The notes under the pieces were generated by a model, which saw nothing but the letters and a program-made list of their open reading frames with translations, had not been told where the DNA came from and searched no databases. Below, piece by piece: positions 3,858 to 12,912 of a stretch of DNA of 42,138 nt (the first letter of the stretch is position 1; the number at the start of each line of letters is the position of its first letter). The stretch comes from a virus: UHGV virus genome UHGV-0055357; one strand, written 5' to 3'. Position numbers and translations under genes: made by a program.

Positions 3858-4064
3858 TTAGTTAATTAACGGATTGCCTTTGCCATCCAATAGAATCTCA
3901 ACAAAATAATCTCTGACGGTTATATTGTCGCGCATATTCGTCATAACTAATTTCCCGCGAGTATTGGCGGTTGCTCTGTATACCCGGTCTTTATATCTGA
4001 CCATTGTTCCGGGTGTTGCACACTGCCGGATTACCTCCTGTGTGCCGTAGTGTTGGTGTTTCAT
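3858..4064 (-). CDS. hypothetical early protein
   Basis: ORF track, 68 aa. 4-nt overlap with the upstream ORF 4061-4411. Confidence 0.45.
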   Translation of the reverse strand: MKHQHYGTQEVIRQCATPGTMVRYKDRVYRATANTRGKLVMTNMRDNITVRDYFVEILLDGKGNPLIN

Positions 4065-4411
4065 GAATTGATTGCCTCACCTTTTTCAGTCGTCGCCGTA
4101 TGCGCCAGGGTGATTTGTGACTTCGCCACTTTTGCTGAATTTATTTCCAGTGCCTCTTTATGTGCTTGTGCCAGATAGTCAGTCCGGCAATCCTCGTCCA
4201 GCGTGTGCCACCATCGCCAGTAACGGTAGGCTAGCTCCATGCGTCTTTTTTCCATTTCCAGCGCTTCGGCGTGGGCCGCTTCAATTGCCGCATCAATATC
4301 CACTTTCCAGGCGAGAGCTGCCGGGATATTGCGATCGCCGATTGCGTCGTCGCGGTGTTCAATCATGTCTTCAATCAGTTCTCTTTCGTTCGCTGGGCGT
4401 GACATTTGCAT
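4061..4411 (-). CDS. hypothetical early protein
   Basis: ORF track, 116 aa, Trp/Arg-rich centre. No family recognised. Confidence 0.5.
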   Translation of the reverse strand: MQMSRPANERELIEDMIEHRDDAIGDRNIPAALAWKVDIDAAIEAAHAEALEMEKRRMELAYRYWRWWHTLDEDCRTDYLAQAHKEALEINSAKVAKSQITLAHTATTEKGEAINS

Positions 4412-4422
4412 CTCCTTTGCTT

Positions 4423-4656
4423 TTATTTGCCAAAAAAACTAAGAACCAGTGAAGCGAACTCCAGTCGCTCTTCCTTGCTGAATTGCTGGTATTTTTCATT
4501 AAAGCGCATTGCGTATTCATACCAGTTCATGATCTCTTCATGAATGATGATCATCACCTCATCATCGTTGGTGCTGGCGGTGATTCGCGCCTGAACTGCT
4601 GGTATAACTACTCGTGCCACTTCCGGTAGGCATTTCAACATTGCATCCATCTTCAT
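4423..4656 (-). CDS. hypothetical protein, first gene of leftward early operon
   Basis: ORF track, 77 aa. Not Arg-rich, so not an obvious lambda N analogue. Confidence 0.5.
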   Translation of the reverse strand: MKMDAMLKCLPEVARVVIPAVQARITASTNDDEVMIIIHEEIMNWYEYAMRFNEKYQQFSKEERLEFASLVLSFFGK

Positions 4657-4701
4657 TTCCTCATCAATCCCTTATCGCCGGGTCGCGGAACTTTTACTGA
4701 G

Positions 4702-4719
4702 TAATCACTGTGCAGTGAT
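4702..4719. promoter_or_regulatory. inverted repeat AATCACTG-TG-CAGTGATT in the leader of the leftward early operon
   Basis: Read directly from sequence. Lies between the candidate leftward promoter and the first early gene, so it could be an operator or an RNA hairpin. Confidence 0.35.
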
Positions 4720-4733
4720 TGTTTTGATGTGGT

Positions 4734-4763
4734 GAATGTAGAATAACCTAAGGTATGAATCAA
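4734..4763 (-). promoter_or_regulatory. candidate PL-like leftward early promoter
   Basis: On the minus strand: TTGATT, 18-bp spacer, TACATT. The spacer contains CCTAAGG, which also occurs in the repressor/cro intergenic region. Confidence 0.3.
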
Positions 4764-4835
4764 GATTTATTTTGTAGAAAAACCTAAATTATATGGCGTG
4801 TGAATTTAACTTAATGAAAGATAAGGAATAAAAAA

Positions 4836-4851
4836 GCCAGCGGGAGCTGGC
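4836..4851 (-). terminator. rho-independent terminator ending the repressor-nuclease transcription unit
   Basis: Minus strand reads GCCAGC-TCCC-GCTGGC followed by TTTTTTATT, 12 nt downstream of the stop of ORF 4863-6017. Confidence 0.6.
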
Positions 4852-4862
4852 TTCTGGATGGA

Positions 4863-6017
4863 TTACGCTTTGTGTTTCTTAAAATTTTCGTCGTTTTGGA
4901 CGAAATGGAGAGAGTCCAGTATCAATCCCGCGATCCGCAGGATGTCCTCGGGTGAGTCCAGGTAAATGCGGTTGCCGTCTGCCTCCAGCCCGGCCCTGGA
5001 TATTTCATTGTAAATTACTGGTGTGAACTCAATAGGGAGTTGAATAGATGAGCGCAACTTTTTGTCATGATATCGAGCTATCCATCTATTTGTTTTTCCT
5101 TTAAATAGTACGGAAAAATAGGACTCTGTATCTTTGCCGTGTAAATCAACGTCTGCTCCCACAATGGCCTGGATTTTTTCGAACACCACCCGCTCGTTAT
5201 AGGTGGTGATAATATTTGGATTGTTGGGGTCGATAATATCAGCAGTCTCATCAATTACGGGTTCGTTGGCTGGATCTGGTTGCTGTACCACTTCCTCAAC
5301 TGCGGGATTGAACGACAGGCCGGATACCACCATTGCGCTGAGTGAGCGCTCTACTGCCTGTTTAACCAGCGGGGTAATTGACTCCAGAAATTTTTGGTTC
5401 AACTGACGTCCGATATTGGCATGGCTGGCAACATAACGAACAAAATCAACGTCAACCTCTTTGAGGCTTGCTGTGATAATTTTGGTGAATGACGATATGT
5501 AAACGCTTTCCTCCGCCAGAGTTCGTAGCGCCTCAGGCTTGAATTTATCGTGACGGAATCTAAAAAGCTGTTCGGCGTCAGCGTCTGAAATATCGTCCAT
5601 CACAACGCGTAAAAACGGCGTTGTGTCCATGATGTTTTTCTCTTTTAAATCAGTAAAAAAGCGCCACTCAACACCGTTAGTTATCGCGGAGATCGTAACT
5701 TCTGGAGTTGAGTTGAAATAGCGGGAGAGCTGCGGGCAATGGTTGTCGATTTTTTCCCGGCAGGATTTTGCTTCGATAAACATGACAGGCACACCCTGGC
5801 AGAATAGCGCGTAATCGACTCGCTCACCACTTTTGACGCCAGGGAAATCGGCGGCATACTCGGCTTTAACTTTCTGCGGATCGTAGGCATTAAAACCTAA
5901 AATATCTAAAAATGGCAGGATTAGCGCCTGTTTCGTGGTTTCTTCAGTTGTGCAGTGTTCCCTAACGTTTTTAACGTGTTCGATGTGATTTTTTAACTTT
6001 TGCTTAAAGCTTTCCAT
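4863..6017 (-). CDS. PD-(D/E)xK nuclease, HsdR-N-terminal-like restriction-endonuclease fold, with uncharacterised C-terminal domain
   Basis: 384 aa. N-terminal motifs ETTKQALILPFLDILGF … RVDYALF … VMFIEAK … QLSRY … ITNGVEWRFF match the D…E-x-K core of the type I HsdR N-terminal nuclease family. Same strand as the repressor and 31 bp downstream of it. Confidence 0.8.
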   Translation of the reverse strand: MESFKQKLKNHIEHVKNVREHCTTEETTKQALILPFLDILGFNAYDPQKVKAEYAADFPGVKSGERVDYALFCQGVPVMFIEAKSCREKIDNHCPQLSRYFNSTPEVTISAITNGVEWRFFTDLKEKNIMDTTPFLRVVMDDISDADAEQLFRFRHDKFKPEALRTLAEESVYISSFTKIITASLKEVDVDFVRYVASHANIGRQLNQKFLESITPLVKQAVERSLSAMVVSGLSFNPAVEEVVQQPDPANEPVIDETADIIDPNNPNIITTYNERVVFEKIQAIVGADVDLHGKDTESYFSVLFKGKTNRWIARYHDKKLRSSIQLPIEFTPVIYNEISRAGLEADGNRIYLDSPEDILRIAGLILDSLHFVQNDENFKKHKA

Positions 6018-6048
6018 GTACTCATCCTTACGATATCCAACAAACTGG

Positions 6049-6459
6049 TTATCTTTTGGACGCGCGCGACCTTGCTTTTAATAACTCACTGAGTCGAATT
6101 CTGTTGTTCTCCACCCTTAGCCGGAGGCTCTCAATTTCAGCCGCGCGGTCAGAGTCCGGTAATTGATCAAACAATTCCAGCAGTTCTTTTTGTTCGGGTG
6201 TTAACTGCTCTAAAAGATCGGGTTTTGGGGCTGGCTCCGTAGGGGTTTGATCCTCGTCACCAAACAGCAACCACGTCGGTGTGCACTGTAATCCGTCGGC
6301 AAGAGCAATAAGCCGCTTCCCCGCTGGCTGTGTCTCGTCTCGTTCCCACTGCGAAATAGTTACGTGAGCAACGCTGACAAGCTTGCCGAGGGCGGCTTGA
6401 GAGAGTTTCAGTTCTTTTCTCCGCTTGAGGAGGCGGGCACCAAAAGTTTCTTTTTTCAT
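6049..6459 (-). CDS. prophage repressor, XRE-family HTH, no S24 peptidase domain
   Basis: 136 aa. N-terminal HTH (LSQAALGKLVSVAHVTISQWE), helical C-terminus. Divergent from the Cro-like gene. No Ala-Gly/Ser-Lys autocleavage module. Confidence 0.85.
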   Translation of the reverse strand: MKKETFGARLLKRRKELKLSQAALGKLVSVAHVTISQWERDETQPAGKRLIALADGLQCTPTWLLFGDEDQTPTEPAPKPDLLEQLTPEQKELLELFDQLPDSDRAAEIESLRLRVENNRIRLSELLKARSRASKR

Positions 6460-6538
6460 TTAAGTTATTCTAATGTCCCTTGACTTAAGATTCCCTACAA
6501 TATAGAGTCCTTAGAAAAACCTAAGGGAGAAGCTCGAC
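6460..6538. promoter_or_regulatory. divergent immunity-region control region with operator-like dyad
   Basis: 79-bp intergenic region between repressor and cro-like gene. Contains TTGACT (6480-6485) and the dyad CCTTAG-AAAAAC-CTAAGG (6509-6526). AAGGGAGAA ribosome-binding site precedes the GTG start at 6539. Confidence 0.5.
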
Positions 6539-6769
6539 GTGTACAAAAATGATGCAATTCGTTTTTTTGGAAATAAAACAAAAGTTGCTGCCGCTGCAGG
6601 TGTAAAACCTGCCTCCGTGTCGGTCTGGGGCGAACTGGTCCCAGAAAAAAATGCGGCGAAATTGCAAATGGTTTCTGGTGGCGTTCTGGTCTATGACCCT
6701 GAGATTTACGCTGAATATAAACGCAACCGCCGCGAGGAACTGAACAATGAAAATCAGTCCTCAAATTGA
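6539..6769 (+). CDS. Cro-like / YdaS-like small DNA-binding regulator
   Basis: 76 aa, GTG start with good ribosome-binding site. Divergent from repressor. AIRFFGNKTKVAAAAGVKPASVSVW resembles Cro/YdaS-type HTH proteins. Confidence 0.7.
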   Translation: MYKNDAIRFFGNKTKVAAAAGVKPASVSVWGELVPEKNAAKLQMVSGGVLVYDPEIYAEYKRNRREELNNENQSSN

Positions 6770-7193
6770 GGCTGTTGCCACTGCTGTTAATCAGTGGGCA
6801 GCGAGCGAGGGCTGGCAAACCGTCGGCCTGGATATAGCAGCACAATATCACTACGAGGGTGGCGGCAGTTTACTACCCGATCCAGACAGTGACCAGGACA
6901 ACGCCAGGCAACGGGTGCGCCGTATTTTTCAGAACTGTGACGGCCCACGCTACAGCGCAATGGCAGCAGAGCTGACAGGCCCGGCATTACGTGCAATGCC
7001 TGTCATGCGAAGTGCTGCTGTGTCGATGCCTGATGCGCCGCAGTATTTATCCGCTCTGGCTCTCAAAGAGATCACGGAGTTTTTAAACGCCGTCAACCTG
7101 GGCGCACCTGATCGCGAGCTGTGCAAAGAGGGGCGAGAGGCGCGCGAGGCGTTCAATCGGTTATTTAACACGGTGATCCCGGCAGGGCACTAA
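6747..7193 (+). CDS. hypothetical regulatory protein in the cII position
   Basis: 148 aa between cro-like gene and O. No sequence similarity to lambda cII recognised; the call is positional. Confidence 0.5.
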   Translation: MKISPQIEAVATAVNQWAASEGWQTVGLDIAAQYHYEGGGSLLPDPDSDQDNARQRVRRIFQNCDGPRYSAMAAELTGPALRAMPVMRSAAVSMPDAPQYLSALALKEITEFLNAVNLGAPDRELCKEGREAREAFNRLFNTVIPAGH

Positions 7194-7212
7194 ACGGCAT
7201 CAGGCGGTCCGC

Positions 7213-8166
7213 GTGGCAGAAATTGAAGACGGTTATACGCGCATTGCTAATGATCTTTACGAGGCACTGATAGGCGCAGATTTGACAAAAGTTCAAAGCA
7301 AAGTCGCGCACGCAGTATGCCGCAAAACATACGGGTTTAATAAAAAAATGGACCGAATATCGGACGGGCAGTTAGCTGAAATAACCAGATTGCCGCGGCA
7401 AAAAGTTAATGCTGCGAAAAACGAACTTATATCCATGAAGATTATAAATCGTGAATGTGGATTAATTGGTATAAATAAAAATATCGCCGATTGGGATATT
7501 AACGGCTCACATCACAGTATTAATAATGTCACCAAAACAGTGACAAAAACTGTCACCAAAACAGGGACAGAATGTGTCACCGATTTGGTGACAAAAGAGG
7601 TGGAAGAAAGTGTCCCCAATTTGGTGACAGATGAAAGCAATGATGTCACCAAAACAGTGACAAAAACTGTCACCAAAACAGGGACACACAAAAGACAAAA
7701 GAAAGTAAATACTAAAAGATCTTCGTCAGAGAATTCTAACGATTCCTCTGACGAGCAATTACAGAAATTTTTATCAGCCCATCCTGATGCGGTGATTTAT
7801 ACCCCGTCCGGGGCAAAGTGGGGAAACGCTGATGACCTGCGTTGTGCTGAATGGCTTTCCGCCGTGGTTGAAACAATCAGGCCGTCTGCAACAAACCGAA
7901 ATATGACCTCGTGGGCAAACGACGTCCGCATGATGCGTTCGCTGGATAATCGCTCACACCGTGAAATCTGTGAGTTATTCAAATGGGCGTCCAGTGATGC
8001 TTTCTGGTGCTCGAATATTTTATCTCCTGCAAAACTGCGTGAGAAGTGGGACACGCTCGCGATACAGCGTGACGCCGGAGGACGTAAACAGCGGCAGGAA
8101 AATTTAAACCACGGTGACGATTCCGAGCACTGGAATAGCCCTGAGGCCTGGAGTGATTTTATATGA
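7213..8166 (+). CDS. O: replication initiator protein O
   Basis: 317 aa. N-terminal domain aligns by eye with lambda O (DGYxRxxNxL … GADLTKxQxKV … RKTYGxNKxMDRIxDxQLxEITxLP). Central VTKTVTKTVTKTG repeats are the coding image of the iterons. Confidence 0.9.
   Translation: MAEIEDGYTRIANDLYEALIGADLTKVQSKVAHAVCRKTYGFNKKMDRISDGQLAEITRLPRQKVNAAKNELISMKIINRECGLIGINKNIADWDINGSHHSINNVTKTVTKTVTKTGTECVTDLVTKEVEESVPNLVTDESNDVTKTVTKTVTKTGTHKRQKKVNTKRSSSENSNDSSDEQLQKFLSAHPDAVIYTPSGAKWGNADDLRCAEWLSAVVETIRPSATNRNMTSWANDVRMMRSLDNRSHREICELFKWASSDAFWCSNILSPAKLREKWDTLAIQRDAGGRKQRQENLNHGDDSEHWNSPEAWSDFI
7527..7686 (+). repeat. origin of replication: six ~19-bp iterons inside the O gene
   Basis: Copies of TGTCACC-N5-RGKGACA start at 7527, 7551, 7575, 7611, 7644 and 7668, followed by an A-rich tract 7687-7721. 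Same architecture as ori-lambda. Confidence 0.75.
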
Positions 8167-9215: not shown

Positions 9216-9464
9216 ATGAGTAAATCATTAGAAGATTTAAACGCTGTTCTTTTTTCGCAGATTGATAAGCTTTCCACGGAAGAGCCTGGAGATAAACTGT
9301 CAGAGGAGATTAAGCGCTCCAAGGCGATGGTGGGGGTAGCGGATACTATTATCGCAAACTCGCGTTTGGTATTCGATATCTATGAATCGCAAGGAGGCAT
9401 GAAATCTATAGAAAATCGACCGGACATTTTGCGAGTTAAAAAACATACTGGCAATGGGAAATAG
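9216..9464 (+). CDS. hypothetical protein
   Basis: ORF track, 82 aa. First gene of a tightly packed three-gene unit with the HNH and methyltransferase genes. Confidence 0.5.
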   Translation: MSKSLEDLNAVLFSQIDKLSTEEPGDKLSEEIKRSKAMVGVADTIIANSRLVFDIYESQGGMKSIENRPDILRVKKHTGNGK

Positions 9465-10005
9465 ATTTCATAAGTTCACGGAAGAGCAAAAATGCTGGTT
9501 ATTTATTCATAACGAGTTGTCTCGCAGAGAGGCAACTCGATTATTTAACCTGCGATTTCAAACGGAACTCATTGAACAGCAAATAATTAATTTCAGAAAA
9601 CGACACGCTTTGCTTACCGGGAGAACAGGACGGTTTGCTCCAGGGCAAAGCTCGCCATCTCTCTCGGGCGCAAAAGGTCCAAACAGGACGTCATTTAAGC
9701 GTGGACATACTCCAGCCAACAAAGCCCTGGTGGGGGAAGAGAGGGTGAGGGGGGGATACATTTACGTCAAAACGGTTGATGGGCGGTGGAAATTAAAACA
9801 TCGATTGCAGCATGGAGGGCAGGTAGTGAGGTTTTGGGATGGGGACGCAAACAATTTATCACCGGAAAATTTAATTCCAGTTACACGCTCCGAACATCTT
9901 ATTTTAAACAGAACGGGGTATTCACATACACCAGAACCCGTAAGGGATGCCCATATTGCCGTTGCAAAATTGAAAGCAAAGATCATTGAGGTAAAGAAAA
10001 AATGA
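9454..10005 (+). CDS. HNH endonuclease (HNH_3-like)
   Basis: 183 aa. HRLQHGGQVVRFWDGDANNLSPENLIPVTRSEH matches the HNH catalytic pattern (His, Asn-Asn, final Glu-His). 4-nt overlap with the downstream methyltransferase. Confidence 0.7.
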   Translation: MGNRFHKFTEEQKCWLFIHNELSRREATRLFNLRFQTELIEQQIINFRKRHALLTGRTGRFAPGQSSPSLSGAKGPNRTSFKRGHTPANKALVGEERVRGGYIYVKTVDGRWKLKHRLQHGGQVVRFWDGDANNLSPENLIPVTRSEHLILNRTGYSHTPEPVRDAHIAVAKLKAKIIEVKKK

Positions 10006-11534
10006 GCATTGCAAATGAACTCTGGCAGGCCGTTGACATATTGCGCGGAGAGGTAAAATCCTCAGAGTACGGAAAATATATTCTACCACTCGTTATCCTG
10101 CGCAGGATAGAGCAGGTTAGTGACGTGGAGACATTACATTCAATCACCACAGGTGCAGAACTAGCGCGGCATATAGCAACCCTTTCGGGTACAGTGCGGA
10201 ATATTTTATCCTGTTTTGATTTTGACAAAACAATCAATAAAACACATGACACAATAGTACAGCAGTTGGCCTTAGCGTTTTCCTGCATTGATGTTCACCC
10301 GGATCGCGTAAATTCTGGCGATATGGGCATGATATTTGAGGATATGATCCACCGTTTCGCGAGTGATGAAACGGCGGGCGAATTCTACACGCCAACGGAT
10401 ATAGTGAAACTGATTACAGAACTGGTGATTCCACTGGATATCTCCAGTGAGGTGGCAATATACGATCCGACCTGCGGGACGGGGGGGATACTCGGCGCGG
10501 CGGAGGAGGTTATTCGTACTCGCCGCCCTGGAGCTGACGTTACATTATATGGTCAGGAATTGAATCCCGAATCTTTCGCCATTTGCCGTGCAGATATGTT
10601 ATTGCGCGGCAGGGATCCTGAAAATATCAGGCTGGGCAATACATTATCCGAGGACAAACTGGCGGGGCGTACATTCGATTTTATTCTCTCTAATCCACCG
10701 TATGGGGTGGACTGGAAAAAAATCGATAAGCTTGTACGAGCTGAACACTGTCAGGGGTTTGCAGGCCGTTACCCAGCGGGGTTACCCCGTGTGTCGGACG
10801 GTTCTCTCCTGTTTGTGCAGCACGTTATCAGCAAGCTGGCACCGGGCGGTCGCGCAGGAATTGTACTCAACGGCTCGCCATTATTTACTGGTGGAGCGGG
10901 CAGTGGAGAGAGCCAAATTCGCAGACACATACTGGAAAACGACCTGCTGGATTGTATTATCGGACTGCCAAAAGACATGTTCTATAACACAGGGATCACC
11001 ACGTACATCTGGATACTGACAAATGAAAAGAGAGTAGAACGAAAAGGGCTGGTCACGCTAATTGATGCATCTGACCTATTTGAAAAAATGCGCAAATCTC
11101 AGGGCAATAAGCGCAATCAGCTGACTGACGCTCAGATCGCTGAAATCGTCAAGTTGTACCGTGATAATCAACCAGGTGAAAAAGTTAAGATTTTTCCGTA
11201 CACCGCTTTTGGTTTCCGCCGAATCACTGTTAAGCGCCCGGACGAGAACGGGAAACCCGATAAAAATAAACGCGATAATGAAAACGTGCCGCTGGGTGAG
11301 AATATCGACGCGTATTTTGCCAGAGAGGTTACGCCACACGTTCCTGACGCCTGGATTGACAGAAAGAAGCGAGATCCGGTTGACGGGGAGGTTGGGATTG
11401 TTGGCTATGAAATACCCTTTAATCGTCATTTTTATGTTTATGTCCCACCGCGTCCCCTTGAAGAAATTGACGCTGAGCTCGCGAGCGTAAGCCGTGAAAT
11501 TGCTGCAATGCTTGCCGAGATGCAAGCGTATTAG
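10002..11534 (+). CDS. N6-adenine DNA methyltransferase, HsdM-like, no adjacent specificity subunit
   Basis: 510 aa. SAM-binding motif I IYDPTCGTGGIL, catalytic motif IV SNPPYG, C-terminal GYEIPFNRHFYVY motif as in type I M subunits. No HsdS or HsdR helicase gene nearby. Confidence 0.85.
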   Translation: MSIANELWQAVDILRGEVKSSEYGKYILPLVILRRIEQVSDVETLHSITTGAELARHIATLSGTVRNILSCFDFDKTINKTHDTIVQQLALAFSCIDVHPDRVNSGDMGMIFEDMIHRFASDETAGEFYTPTDIVKLITELVIPLDISSEVAIYDPTCGTGGILGAAEEVIRTRRPGADVTLYGQELNPESFAICRADMLLRGRDPENIRLGNTLSEDKLAGRTFDFILSNPPYGVDWKKIDKLVRAEHCQGFAGRYPAGLPRVSDGSLLFVQHVISKLAPGGRAGIVLNGSPLFTGGAGSGESQIRRHILENDLLDCIIGLPKDMFYNTGITTYIWILTNEKRVERKGLVTLIDASDLFEKMRKSQGNKRNQLTDAQIAEIVKLYRDNQPGEKVKIFPYTAFGFRRITVKRPDENGKPDKNKRDNENVPLGENIDAYFAREVTPHVPDAWIDRKKRDPVDGEVGIVGYEIPFNRHFYVYVPPRPLEEIDAELASVSREIAAMLAEMQAY

Positions 11535-12662: not shown

Positions 12663-12682
12663 TACTGTACAAATATACAGTA
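12663..12682. promoter_or_regulatory. LexA (SOS) box
   Basis: TACTGTACAAATATACAGTA matches the CTGT-N8-ACAG consensus with AT-rich centre. Sits 30 bp upstream of the ATG at 12712. Confidence 0.6.
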
Positions 12683-12711: not shown

Positions 12712-12912
12712 ATGAAAATCATGAATGATTTAATACCGGACGCAGAGTGCCACACGGGCCTGGTACTGGTGAGAATAGAGGAAGGGCGCATTATTGGCGG
12801 CTTTGTCCTGCGGCCTGACCAATTCGTTACATCAATAACTGAACTGGAGGATGCACGAAAAATGGCAGGTTTGCCAGCATCCTCTTACACTCGCGGCGTA
12901 ACTGATTTATAA
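12712..12912 (+). CDS. small protein under the LexA box, candidate antirepressor
   Basis: 66 aa, GGGAGA ribosome-binding site. Functional call rests on the SOS box and the non-cleavable repressor, not on sequence similarity. Confidence 0.45.
   Translation: MKIMNDLIPDAECHTGLVLVRIEEGRIIGGFVLRPDQFVTSITELEDARKMAGLPASSYTRGVTDL

What the first reader, a model, noticed from the sequence alone, without database searches (positions are those of the whole stretch)
4744..6526. Shared operator-like motif at both flanks of the repressor-nuclease unit
The 13-mer TAGAAAAACCTAA occurs at 4775-4787 and again at 6512-6524, and AACCTAAGG occurs at 4744-4752 and 6518-6526. The right-hand copy is part of the dyad CCTTAG-AAAAAC-CTAAGG between repressor and cro. 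The left-hand copies overlap the candidate leftward promoter. This looks like an OL/OR operator pair, and it places the nuclease gene inside the immunity region.
Basis: seen in the sequence. Interest (0 to 1): 0.45.

Follow-up and report, generated by a model that had tools for sequence, protein, structure and literature searches.

The report
Prophage repressor operators flanking a nuclease gene
The repeated motif is real and is most likely the set of repressor-binding sites of an E. coli prophage's on/off switch, a well-known type of switch, here with an uncharacterised nuclease gene inserted between the repressor gene and its second control region.

Summary

The window is a lambdoid (Rac/Qin-like) prophage of E. 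coli STEC384. The repressor (6049-6459, minus strand) belongs to the DicA family, and its DNA-binding domain resembles that of P22 C2.

The motif is an 18-bp dyad, CCTTAG-N6-CTAAGG. There are five copies, not three:
- Three lie between the repressor and cro genes: Oc 6509-6526, Om 6483-6500, Oa 6458-6475.
- Two lie at the leftward promoter: OL2 4772-4789 and OL1 4736-4753.

A weight matrix built only from four other phages ranks these five sites as the top five in the 42 kb.

The layout matches 12 relatives, including Qin, where DicA binding to the homologous site Oc (TGTTAG-N6-CTAACA) has been shown in vivo. The outer half-site bases differ between two classes, and they change together at both control regions.

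In the 12 DicA-type relatives the left operators start about 36-110 bp after the repressor gene. Here they start 1,260 bp after it, because a 384-aa PD-(D/E)xK nuclease gene and a terminator lie in between. This is the position of rexAB in lambda.

Homologous nuclease genes follow four kinds of repressor in 9 further contexts of 11 sampled. This is an ordinary switch of a known kind with a moderately interesting cargo gene.

The parts
6509..6526 (.). Oc (OR1-like) operator, perfect dyad CCTTAG-AAAAAC-CTAAGG. It starts directly after the PR -10 and covers the predicted cro start site and part of the cro ribosome-binding site.
   Evidence: 24.7 bits. Same position as Qin Oc (PMC3441716). Invariant in the Salmonella relatives.
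6483..6500 (.). Om-like middle site ACTTAAGATTCCCTACAA, between the PR -35 and -10. This is the weakest match.
   Evidence: 16.0 bits, fifth of all positions, just below the null maximum of 16.4. Same position as ACTTAGGTTTCTCTACGA in L003 and L024.
6458..6475 (.). Oa-like site ATTTAAGTTATTCTAATG. It overlaps two bases of the repressor ATG and contains TAGAAT, the candidate -10 of the repressor's own promoter.
   Evidence: 6460-6472, 2 mismatches; 17.8 bits. A site abuts the ATG in all 13 loci.
4772..4789 (.). OL2 (nearer the repressor), read on the minus strand as ATTTAGGTTTTTCTACAA. It lies upstream of the PL -35.
   Evidence: 23.9 bits. The core is invariant in Salmonella while the flanks diverge.
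4736..4753 (.). OL1 (farther from the repressor), read on the minus strand as CCTTAGGTTATTCTACAT. It overlaps the PL spacer and -10.
   Evidence: 25.6 bits. The 36-bp spacing to OL2 matches the 35-36 bp seen in all relatives.
6480..6508 (+). PR promoter for cro: TTGACT, 17-bp spacer, TAGAGT.
   Evidence: Qin has TTGACT-17-TATCTT at the same position.
4735..4763 (-). Candidate PL: -35 TTGATT (4763 to 4758), 17-bp spacer, -10 TACATT (4740 to 4735). Predicted start near 4728.
   Evidence: Read from the sequence. TTG is at the same place in 12 of 13 loci. It matches 8 of 12 consensus positions, so it falls below the scan threshold. Inferred.
6467..6472 (-). Candidate -10 (TAGAAT) of the repressor promoter, 7 nt before the A of the ATG. 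This predicts a leaderless repressor mRNA. No Shine-Dalgarno sequence is present.
   Evidence: Sequence. TAGAAT or TAGCAT is conserved in all loci. Inferred.
6049..6459 (-). DicA-family repressor, 136 aa. It has an HTH_3 domain and no S24 peptidase domain.
6539..6769 (+). Cro-like protein (P22_Cro family, DicC-like), 76 aa.
4863..6017 (-). 384-aa protein with an N-terminal PD-(D/E)xK nuclease domain (HSDR_N; D68, E82, K84) and a C-terminal YjbR/YdhG-like domain. The gene starts 31 bp after the repressor stop.
   Evidence: phrog_4225, E 7e-146; catalytic residues invariant in 28 homologues.
4832..4855 (-). Intrinsic terminator (10-bp stem followed by a T run) that closes the repressor-nuclease unit just before OL2.
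   Evidence: The stem is kept in Salmonella while the loop differs.
4423..4656 (-). First gene of the leftward operon. Downstream genes include a Kil-like division inhibitor (3858-4064), Gam and RecE.
12663..12682 (+). LexA box TACTGTACAAATATACAGTA, upstream of the Rem-like gene.
12712..12912 (+). 66-aa homologue of the Qin Rem antirepressor. This is the likely inducer of the switch.
   Evidence: 36% identity over 44 aa, E 7e-9. Rem antagonises DicA (bioRxiv 10.1101/2023.04.14.536235).

Best explanation
The motif copies are the operators of a DicA/DicC-type (P22 C2/Cro-like) lysis-lysogeny switch.

How it most likely works (all steps inferred from homology and anatomy):
- A dimer of the 136-aa repressor recognises an 18-bp dyad, (C/T)CTTAG(G)-N4-(C)CTAAG(G).
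- At the right-hand region, repressor on Oc (6509-6526) sits over the PR start site and blocks transcription of cro, the cII-like gene and the replication genes. As shown for Qin DicA, it probably also activates the weak, probably leaderless repressor promoter, whose -10 lies inside Oa.
- Om and Oa are weaker sites. They would serve for cooperative or negative autoregulation by the repressor, for Cro, or both.
- At the left-hand region, OL1 overlaps the spacer and -10 of PL and OL2 lies just upstream of its -35. Together they silence the kil-gam-recE operon.
- The nuclease gene lies between the repressor gene and OL, upstream of the only terminator. It is therefore most likely transcribed with the repressor in the lysogen, like rexAB in lambda.
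- The repressor has no self-cleavage domain. Induction most likely works through a LexA-controlled, Rem-like antirepressor encoded at 12712-12912.

Shown here: motif positions, statistics, conservation, homologies and gene order. Inferred: binding, promoter positions, co-transcription and the induction route.
For: Site statistics.

Conservation:
- All five sites are unchanged in Salmonella prophages whose repressor is 97% identical, while neighbouring bases differ.
- In 164 other E. coli genomes, only the block 4720-4799 (OL1, -35, OL2) of a 181-bp query stays alignable.

Family architecture in 13 loci: Oc lies 66-68 bp before the repressor ATG, a site abuts the ATG, and two downstream sites 35-36 bp apart bracket a TTG -35.

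Specificity classes:
- The CCTTAG and TGTTAG classes change in step at OR and OL.
- They coincide with differences in the N-terminal arm and helix 2 of the repressor, SQAAL against TQR(E/S).

Homology and published evidence:
- DicA family and P22 C2 N-terminal domain.
- DicA binds Qin Oc in vivo, represses dicC and activates dicA (PMC3441716).
- Operators were described at dicBp as well as between dicA and dicC (10.1101/2023.04.14.536235).
- The centres of Oc and OL2 are A-tracts, the kind the P22 repressor prefers by indirect readout (PMC4267663).

Regulatory signals and independent parallels:
- PR promoter and terminator.
- Klebsiella phage KpF5 repeats the arrangement with a different repressor and its own operator, ATTAGGCTAAGCCTAAT, on both sides of a homologous nuclease gene plus terminator.
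- LexA box and Rem homologue.
Against: - There is no binding or transcript data for this phage.
- OL1 and OL2 have one good half-site and one degenerate half-site (CTACAT, CTACAA against CTAAGG). In Qin a single A-to-C change in one half of Oc abolished DicA binding in vivo (PMC3441716).
- In Qin, DicA did not detectably bind isolated Om or Oa (data not shown in PMC3441716). So the weaker copies here may not be repressor sites.
- The sites in relatives are positional orthologues, so the weight-matrix test is not evolutionarily independent.
- The class covariation rests on only two classes.
- PL matches only 8 of 12 consensus positions and was not called by the scan.
- Co-transcription of the nuclease gene rests on the absence of a detected terminator or promoter, not on data.
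Confidence: 0.85

Rival explanations
1. The sites are used mainly by the Cro-like (DicC-type) protein. Alternatively the two proteins divide them: the repressor binds only Oc, while Cro binds Oa, Om and the OL sites.
For: In Qin only Oc bound DicA in the in vivo assay; Om and Oa did not (PMC3441716). Cro here belongs to the P22_Cro family, and Cro proteins of lambdoid phages use the same operators as the repressor. Oa overlaps the candidate repressor promoter, the classic Cro target.
Against: DicA represses dicBp 22-fold in Qin, while deleting dicC has no effect on it (10.1101/2023.04.14.536235). So the repressor acts at the left promoter in the type member. OL1 and OL2 score as high as Oc in the weight matrix.
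Confidence: 0.1
2. The shared sequence reflects common promoter parts or an old duplication of a promoter block (a TAGAAT-like -10 and an A-tract), not protein-binding sites at the left flank.
For: TAGAAT occurs inside Oa and, on the opposite strand, inside OL1. Oa resembles OL1, and Oc resembles OL2, spacer included. This pattern could be a duplication trace.
Against: The dyad half-sites, not the promoter hexamers, are what stay constant across 13 loci. The half-site flanks change in step at both regions. In Salmonella a perfect TATAAT next to OL2 is lost while OL2 is untouched. Phage KpF5 shows the same two-flank arrangement with an unrelated operator.
Confidence: 0.04
3. The nuclease gene is an independent insertion with its own promoter. 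Its position between the repressor gene and OL has no regulatory meaning.
For: The family also occurs away from repressors: at a prophage end in Pasteurella and beside HicAB in Porphyromonas phages. No transcript data exist.
Against: The gap to the repressor is 31 bp here, 8 bp in Morganella and 27 bp in the Fusobacterium phage, always in the same orientation. In the window the scan found no terminator between the two genes and one right after the nuclease gene. In 9 further contexts of 11 sampled, the gene follows a repressor or a repressor-protease pair of four different kinds.
Confidence: 0.15
4. The repeat is a chance match in AT-rich intergenic DNA.
For: 3 of 100 shuffles reach four 13-mer matches with up to 2 mismatches.
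Against: All matches fall within about 285 bp of intergenic DNA out of 42 kb. The sites are conserved in other genera and sit at fixed positions relative to the genes.
Confidence: 0.01

Closest known systems
dicA-dicC-dicBp immunity region of the E. coli K-12 Qin cryptic prophage
   Same: The repressor is of the same family (NF007257), and Cro is of the DicC/P22 Cro type. Oc, Om and Oa sit at the same positions. The PR promoter is the same type, TTGACT with a 17-bp spacer. Two operators 35-36 bp apart bracket the leftward promoter. The repressor is short and lacks a cleavage domain, and a Rem-type antirepressor is present (PMC3441716; 10.1101/2023.04.14.536235).
   Different: The repressor is only 57% identical to the closest E. 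coli DicA-like proteins found. The half-site specificity is CCTTAG rather than TGTTAG. A 1.15-kb nuclease gene plus terminator lies between the repressor gene and OL. The prophage looks complete rather than cryptic. The Rem-like gene carries a near-consensus LexA box.
Phage P22 immC (c2 repressor, cro, OR and OL)
   Same: The DNA-binding domain is homologous (1adr E 7e-21). The operator is an 18-bp dyad with contacted outer bases and four uncontacted, A/T-rich central bases (PMC4267663). Oa even contains ATTTAAG, which I recall, unchecked, as the P22 consensus half-site.
   Different: There is no S24 self-cleavage domain, so direct RecA-mediated cleavage is not expected. OL has two sites rather than three. 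The half-site sequence differs.
Phage lambda cI-rexA-rexB with OL and OR
   Same: A cargo gene sits directly after the repressor gene, in the same orientation, before the terminator and OL/PL. The predicted repressor mRNA is leaderless. The operators flank the whole unit at a distance of 1.7 kb (2.4 kb in lambda, from general knowledge).
   Different: The nuclease is not homologous to RexA or RexB, and the repressor is of a different family. OL-OR looping is neither known nor tested here.
Antirepressor-controlled short repressors (Gifsy prophages; Qin DicA and Rem)
   Same: The repressor is short and lacks a peptidase domain. A small gene behind a LexA box is homologous to Rem.
   Different: Antirepressor activity of the 66-aa protein is untested. 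It is only 36% identical to Rem over 44 residues.

Membership tests
DicA/DicC-type lambdoid immunity region | Repressor homologous to DicA over its full length | tested here: met
   NCBIfam NF007257, 180.3 bits (cut-off 101), residues 1-136 against model positions 1-135.
DicA/DicC-type lambdoid immunity region | Divergently transcribed Cro/DicC-type gene | tested here: met
   Pfam P22_Cro, 54.7 bits (cut-off 30.2). The NCBIfam DicC model scores 100 bits, below its cut-off of 130. So the protein is Cro-family but not a close DicC.
DicA/DicC-type lambdoid immunity region | Dyad operators (Oc, Om, Oa) in the repressor-cro intergenic region, at the family's positions | tested here: met
   Oc lies 67 bp before the ATG, against 66-68 bp in all 12 relatives. 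A site abuts the ATG in every locus.
DicA/DicC-type lambdoid immunity region | The same operator type repeated at the leftward (dicBp/PL-like) promoter | tested here: met
   OL2 and OL1 are 36 bp apart around TTGATT. Relatives have the same layout.
DicA/DicC-type lambdoid immunity region | Repressor binds the operators and represses PR and PL | not testable with these tools
   This needs EMSA, footprinting or reporter assays. It has been shown only for Qin Oc and dicBp (PMC3441716; 10.1101/2023.04.14.536235).
DicA/DicC-type lambdoid immunity region | No RecA-cleavable domain; induction by an antirepressor | tested here: inconclusive
   There is no Peptidase_S24 hit. A Rem homologue follows a LexA box. 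Its function is untested.
Type I restriction enzyme R subunit (the RefSeq name of the 384-aa protein) | HSDR_N nuclease domain together with SF2 helicase/ATPase motor domains, and adjacent hsdM and hsdS genes | tested here: not met
   Only HSDR_N and HSDR_N_2 match, at residues 25-128. The NCBIfam HsdR model scores 19 bits against a cut-off of 729. There is no motor domain in the 384 aa. The fold matches only the nuclease domain of HsdR and type IIG enzymes. The name is a misnomer.
Lambda rexAB-type cargo of the repressor operon | Gene downstream of the repressor, same strand, inside the repressor transcription unit and before OL | tested here: met
   The gap is 31 bp. The scan found no terminator between the genes, and the terminator lies at 4832-4855, before OL2. 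Co-transcription itself is not shown.
Lambda rexAB-type cargo of the repressor operon | Homology to RexA or RexB, or a shown exclusion phenotype | tested here: not met
   Pfam and PADLOC gave no Rex family hit. PADLOC gave only a marginal type IIG hit at E 0.0055. The phenotype cannot be tested here.

The most novel reading that the evidence does not exclude
The 384-aa nuclease (phrog_4225: a PD-(D/E)xK domain plus a YjbR/YdhG-like domain) may be an undescribed prophage defence or superinfection-exclusion gene expressed in the lysogen. It would have been repeatedly captured into the repressor transcription unit of temperate phages. It follows DicA-type, RacR-type, CI-S24-type and Gram-positive repressor or protease modules, and in Yersinia it survives as a bare repressor-nuclease pair. 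In the window the OL and OR operators would frame this unit. Two perfectly matching E. coli CRISPR spacers against the gene show that elements carrying it are common invaders.
Probability: 0.35. Interest if true: 0.55.

Novelty: new member of a known kind. Interest (0 to 1): 0.3.

Why it matters
The work gives a precise, testable map of the genetic switch of a rare STEC prophage, found in 2 of 5,426 complete E. coli genomes and also in Salmonella. The map comprises five operators, three promoters, a terminator and a candidate antirepressor.

It shows that DicA-type switches fall into at least two operator-specificity classes. This is useful for predicting immunity groups among prophages.

The more interesting by-product is the nuclease. 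A conserved, uncharacterised nuclease family sits in the repressor operon of temperate phages from several phyla. This marks it as a candidate lysogen-expressed defence gene that PADLOC (2023) does not list. The operator finding itself is textbook regulatory architecture.

Tried and rejected
- A near-identity DNA search of the phage collection found nothing. Only two complete E. coli genomes hold the region.
- A genome-collection scan with the repressor returned only relatives of 55-65% identity. Closer ones came from the protein index.
- A perfect TATAAT at 4788-4793 (minus strand) next to OL2 looked like a PL -10. I rejected it because it has no -35 and is not conserved in Salmonella (CACAAAAC there).
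- My first core pattern, CTTAGG-N6-CTA, was in the wrong register and found nothing relevant. One search corrected it.
- An Rfam scan of 4300-7000 found nothing meaningful.
- A simple terminator scan found no clear terminator between the repressor gene and OL in relatives. So the terminator here may have arrived with the nuclease cassette.
- Literature searches for the nuclease family in a prophage or repressor context found nothing relevant.
- OL-OR looping was considered but cannot be assessed.
Full report
**1. Observation**

The sequence and pattern searches confirm the 13-mer TAGAAAAACCTAA at 4775-4787 and 6512-6524. The dyad CCTTAG-AAAAAC-CTAAGG occupies 6509-6526.

Allowing two mismatches, the 13-mer matches only four places in 42 kb (expected 0.91). 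All four lie in the two intergenic regions: 4739-4751, 4775-4787, 6460-6472 (minus strand) and 6512-6524. The core TTAGG-N5-CTA matches three times against 0.5 expected, in the same places.

**2. Context**

The window is a lambdoid prophage of E. coli STEC384 and STEC379, identical over the 2.8 kb queried (4400-7200). Only 2 of 5,426 complete genomes hold this immunity region. The gene order is:
- int, xis ... recE, gam, kil-like gene ... 77-aa ORF (4423-4656), all on the minus strand;
- an intergenic region, 4657-4862;
- a 384-aa HSDR_N protein (4863-6017, minus strand);
- the 136-aa repressor (6049-6459, minus strand);
- an intergenic region, 6460-6538;
- cro-like gene (6539-6769, plus strand), then a cII/YdaT-like gene, O and P.

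The repressor is a full-length DicA-family protein (NF007257, 180 bits against a cut-off of 101). It has no peptidase domain. Its N-terminal domain is homologous to the DNA-binding domain of P22 C2 (1adr, E 7e-21).

A strong terminator (4832-4855, minus strand) follows the HSDR_N gene. The scan found no terminator between that gene and the repressor gene. PR is TTGACT-17-TAGAGT at 6480-6508.

**3. Comparative evidence**

*Close relatives.* Salmonella prophages have a 97% identical repressor and the same nuclease gene but different neighbouring genes. They keep every motif copy unchanged while adjacent bases differ. For example, a TATAAT next to OL2 is lost.

*More distant relatives.* I examined eleven further DicA-type loci: Enterobacter, Pantoea, Erwinia, Buttiauxella, E. 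albertii, E. ruysiae, two Citrobacter, PPompW, Klebsiella phage ST405-OXA48phi1.2 and PhiR42_1. I added Qin of K-12. With Salmonella locus L010, twelve of these relatives plus the window make the 13 loci compared in detail; Erwinia locus L004 was scanned only.

In every one:
- the best dyad of the repressor-cro region lies 66-68 bp before the repressor ATG;
- a second site abuts the ATG;
- two more sites, 35-36 bp apart, bracket a TTG-type -35 downstream of the repressor gene.

The window has the same arrangement, with OL2 at 4772-4789 and OL1 at 4736-4753, 36 bp apart. A middle site, Om, lies at 6483-6500.

*Weight-matrix test.* A weight matrix built from 20 sites of four other phages ranks the window's five sites as the top five of all positions on both strands: 25.6, 24.7, 23.9, 17.8 and 16.0 bits. 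The next best site scores 12.1, and the null maximum was 16.4. Because these sites are orthologous to the window's sites, the test shows conservation. It is not independent discovery.

*Conservation in other E. coli.* In 164 other E. coli genomes, only 4720-4799 (the OL1, -35, OL2 block) of a 181-bp query stays alignable.

**4. Specificity classes**

The loci split into two classes:
- a CCTTAG-N6-CTAAGG class (the window, Salmonella, Enterobacter, Pantoea, PPompW, the Klebsiella phage);
- a TGTTAG-N6-CTAACA class (Qin, PhiR42_1, Buttiauxella, E. albertii, E. ruysiae, Citrobacter).

The OL sites follow the class of their own Oc. The classes coincide with differences in the N-terminal arm and helix 2 of the repressor (SQAAL against TQR(E/S)), while helix 3 is conserved. 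This is what operators and their repressor are expected to do. It rests on only two classes, so it is suggestive rather than conclusive.

**5. What is known**

Qin Oc is TTGTTAGTCATAACTAACAA. In vivo, DicA binds it, represses dicC and activates its own gene. A single A-to-C change abolishes binding. Om and Oa were defined by sequence only, and DicA did not bind them alone (PMC3441716).

[quoted passage not shown] DicA represses dicBp 22-fold, and the Qin protein Rem acts as its antirepressor (10.1101/2023.04.14.536235).

The P22 repressor binds an 18-bp dyad. It contacts positions 2-7 and 12-17 and reads the four central bases indirectly, preferring A/T-rich centres (PMC4267663). In the window, Oc and OL2 have AAAA/TTTT centres.

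**6. Mechanism (inferred)**

- Repressor on Oc covers the PR start region, because Oc begins right after the -10.
- OL1 overlaps the spacer and -10 of the candidate PL (TTGATT-17-TACATT, 4763 to 4735), and OL2 lies upstream of its -35.
- Oa contains TAGAAT seven bases before the ATG, with no ribosome-binding site. This predicts a leaderless, activator-dependent repressor mRNA, as for lambda cI.
- PL controls a Kil-like division inhibitor. Tight repression therefore matters, as with dicB in Qin.
- Induction probably runs through a 66-aa Rem homologue (12712-12912; 36% identity, E 7e-9). It sits behind a near-consensus LexA box at 12663-12682.

**7. The nuclease inside the immunity region**

*Position.* In the 12 DicA-type relatives OL starts about 36-110 bp after the repressor gene. 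In the window it starts 1,260 bp after it, with the nuclease gene and terminator in between.

*The protein.*
- It matches phrog_4225 over its full length (E 7e-146).
- It has an HSDR_N PD-(D/E)xK domain whose residues D68, E82 and K84 are invariant in 28 homologues.
- It lacks the motor domains of a type I R subunit, so the RefSeq name is a misnomer.
- PADLOC does not list it.

*Where homologues sit.* Homologues lie directly downstream of, and in the same orientation as:
- a RacR-type repressor in Klebsiella phage KpF5. That phage's own operator, ATTAGGCTAAGCCTAAT, again occurs on both sides of the repressor-nuclease-terminator unit;
- CI-S24 repressors in two Morganella prophage contexts, in one of which the next gene downstream is N-like, and in a Yersinia remnant;
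- a CI-type repressor in a Fusobacterium phage and an HTH regulator cluster in a Clostridium phage;
- a repressor followed by a second gene (an annotated metalloprotease in the Enterococcus phage) in Streptococcus, Enterococcus and, by gene order only, Lacticaseibacillus phages.

Two sampled contexts differ: Pasteurella and Porphyromonas.

**8. Verdict**

The finding is correct and describes an ordinary DicA/P22-type OL/OR operator system. It is a new member of a known kind with a new operator-specificity class. The only mildly novel aspect is the recurrent nuclease cargo of the repressor operon, whose function is unknown.

Noticed in passing
window 5067-5098 and 5423-5455 (inside the nuclease gene); also 4669-4686: CRISPR arrays of E. 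coli ATCC 8739 and about 38 other complete genomes carry spacers matching the nuclease gene at 100%. In the ATCC 8739 array, two such spacers have protospacers flanked by AAG and AGG, which I recall as working type I-E PAMs. A third, partly read spacer in the same array shares 18 nt with the PL leader.
   Followed up: partly
window 4703-4720 (minus-strand transcript; about +9 to +26 of the predicted PL mRNA): The palindrome AATCACTGCACAGTGATT lies between conserved CATCAA and CTCAG. It is present in the PL leader of all 13 DicA-type loci, including the Qin dicBp leader (CACCGCACGGTG). The loop GCAC is constant and the stem changes on both sides together. It could be an RNA hairpin or a second protein-binding site. 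It occurs once in the window, and Rfam has no match.
   Followed up: partly
window 12663-12682 and 12712-12912: A near-consensus LexA box, TACTGTACAAATATACAGTA, sits directly upstream of a 66-aa ORF homologous to the Qin antirepressor Rem (36% identity, E 7e-9; phrog_340). This is the likely SOS-controlled inducer of the prophage.
   Followed up: partly
L032 and L033, 2214-4158 (Yersinia pseudotuberculosis): An S24-type repressor gene followed by a homologue of the nuclease gene stands alone among ordinary chromosomal genes (GGDEF, OmpA, ABC transporter, Fic). This suggests the two-gene unit is retained after the prophage decays.
   Followed up: no
window 9454-10005 and 10002-11534: An HNH endonuclease gene overlaps the start of a 510-aa HsdM-like N6-adenine methyltransferase gene (HsdM_N, N6_Mtase and Eco57I domains) in the early-right operon. 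No hsdS or hsdR gene is nearby. Any link to the HSDR_N nuclease was not examined. The Salmonella relatives carry different methylases.
   Followed up: no
window about 7500-7700 (inside the O-like replication gene, 7213-8166): The protein contains repeated VTKTVTKTVTKTG segments. These imply DNA repeats inside the O gene, as expected for iterons of a lambda-type origin.
   Followed up: no
window 4737-4744, plus strand: TGTAGAAT inside OL1 reads as an extended -10 pointing rightwards, antisense to the nuclease gene. The equivalent TAGAAT is conserved in the farther OL site of several relatives. Whether it drives an antisense transcript is unknown.
   Followed up: no
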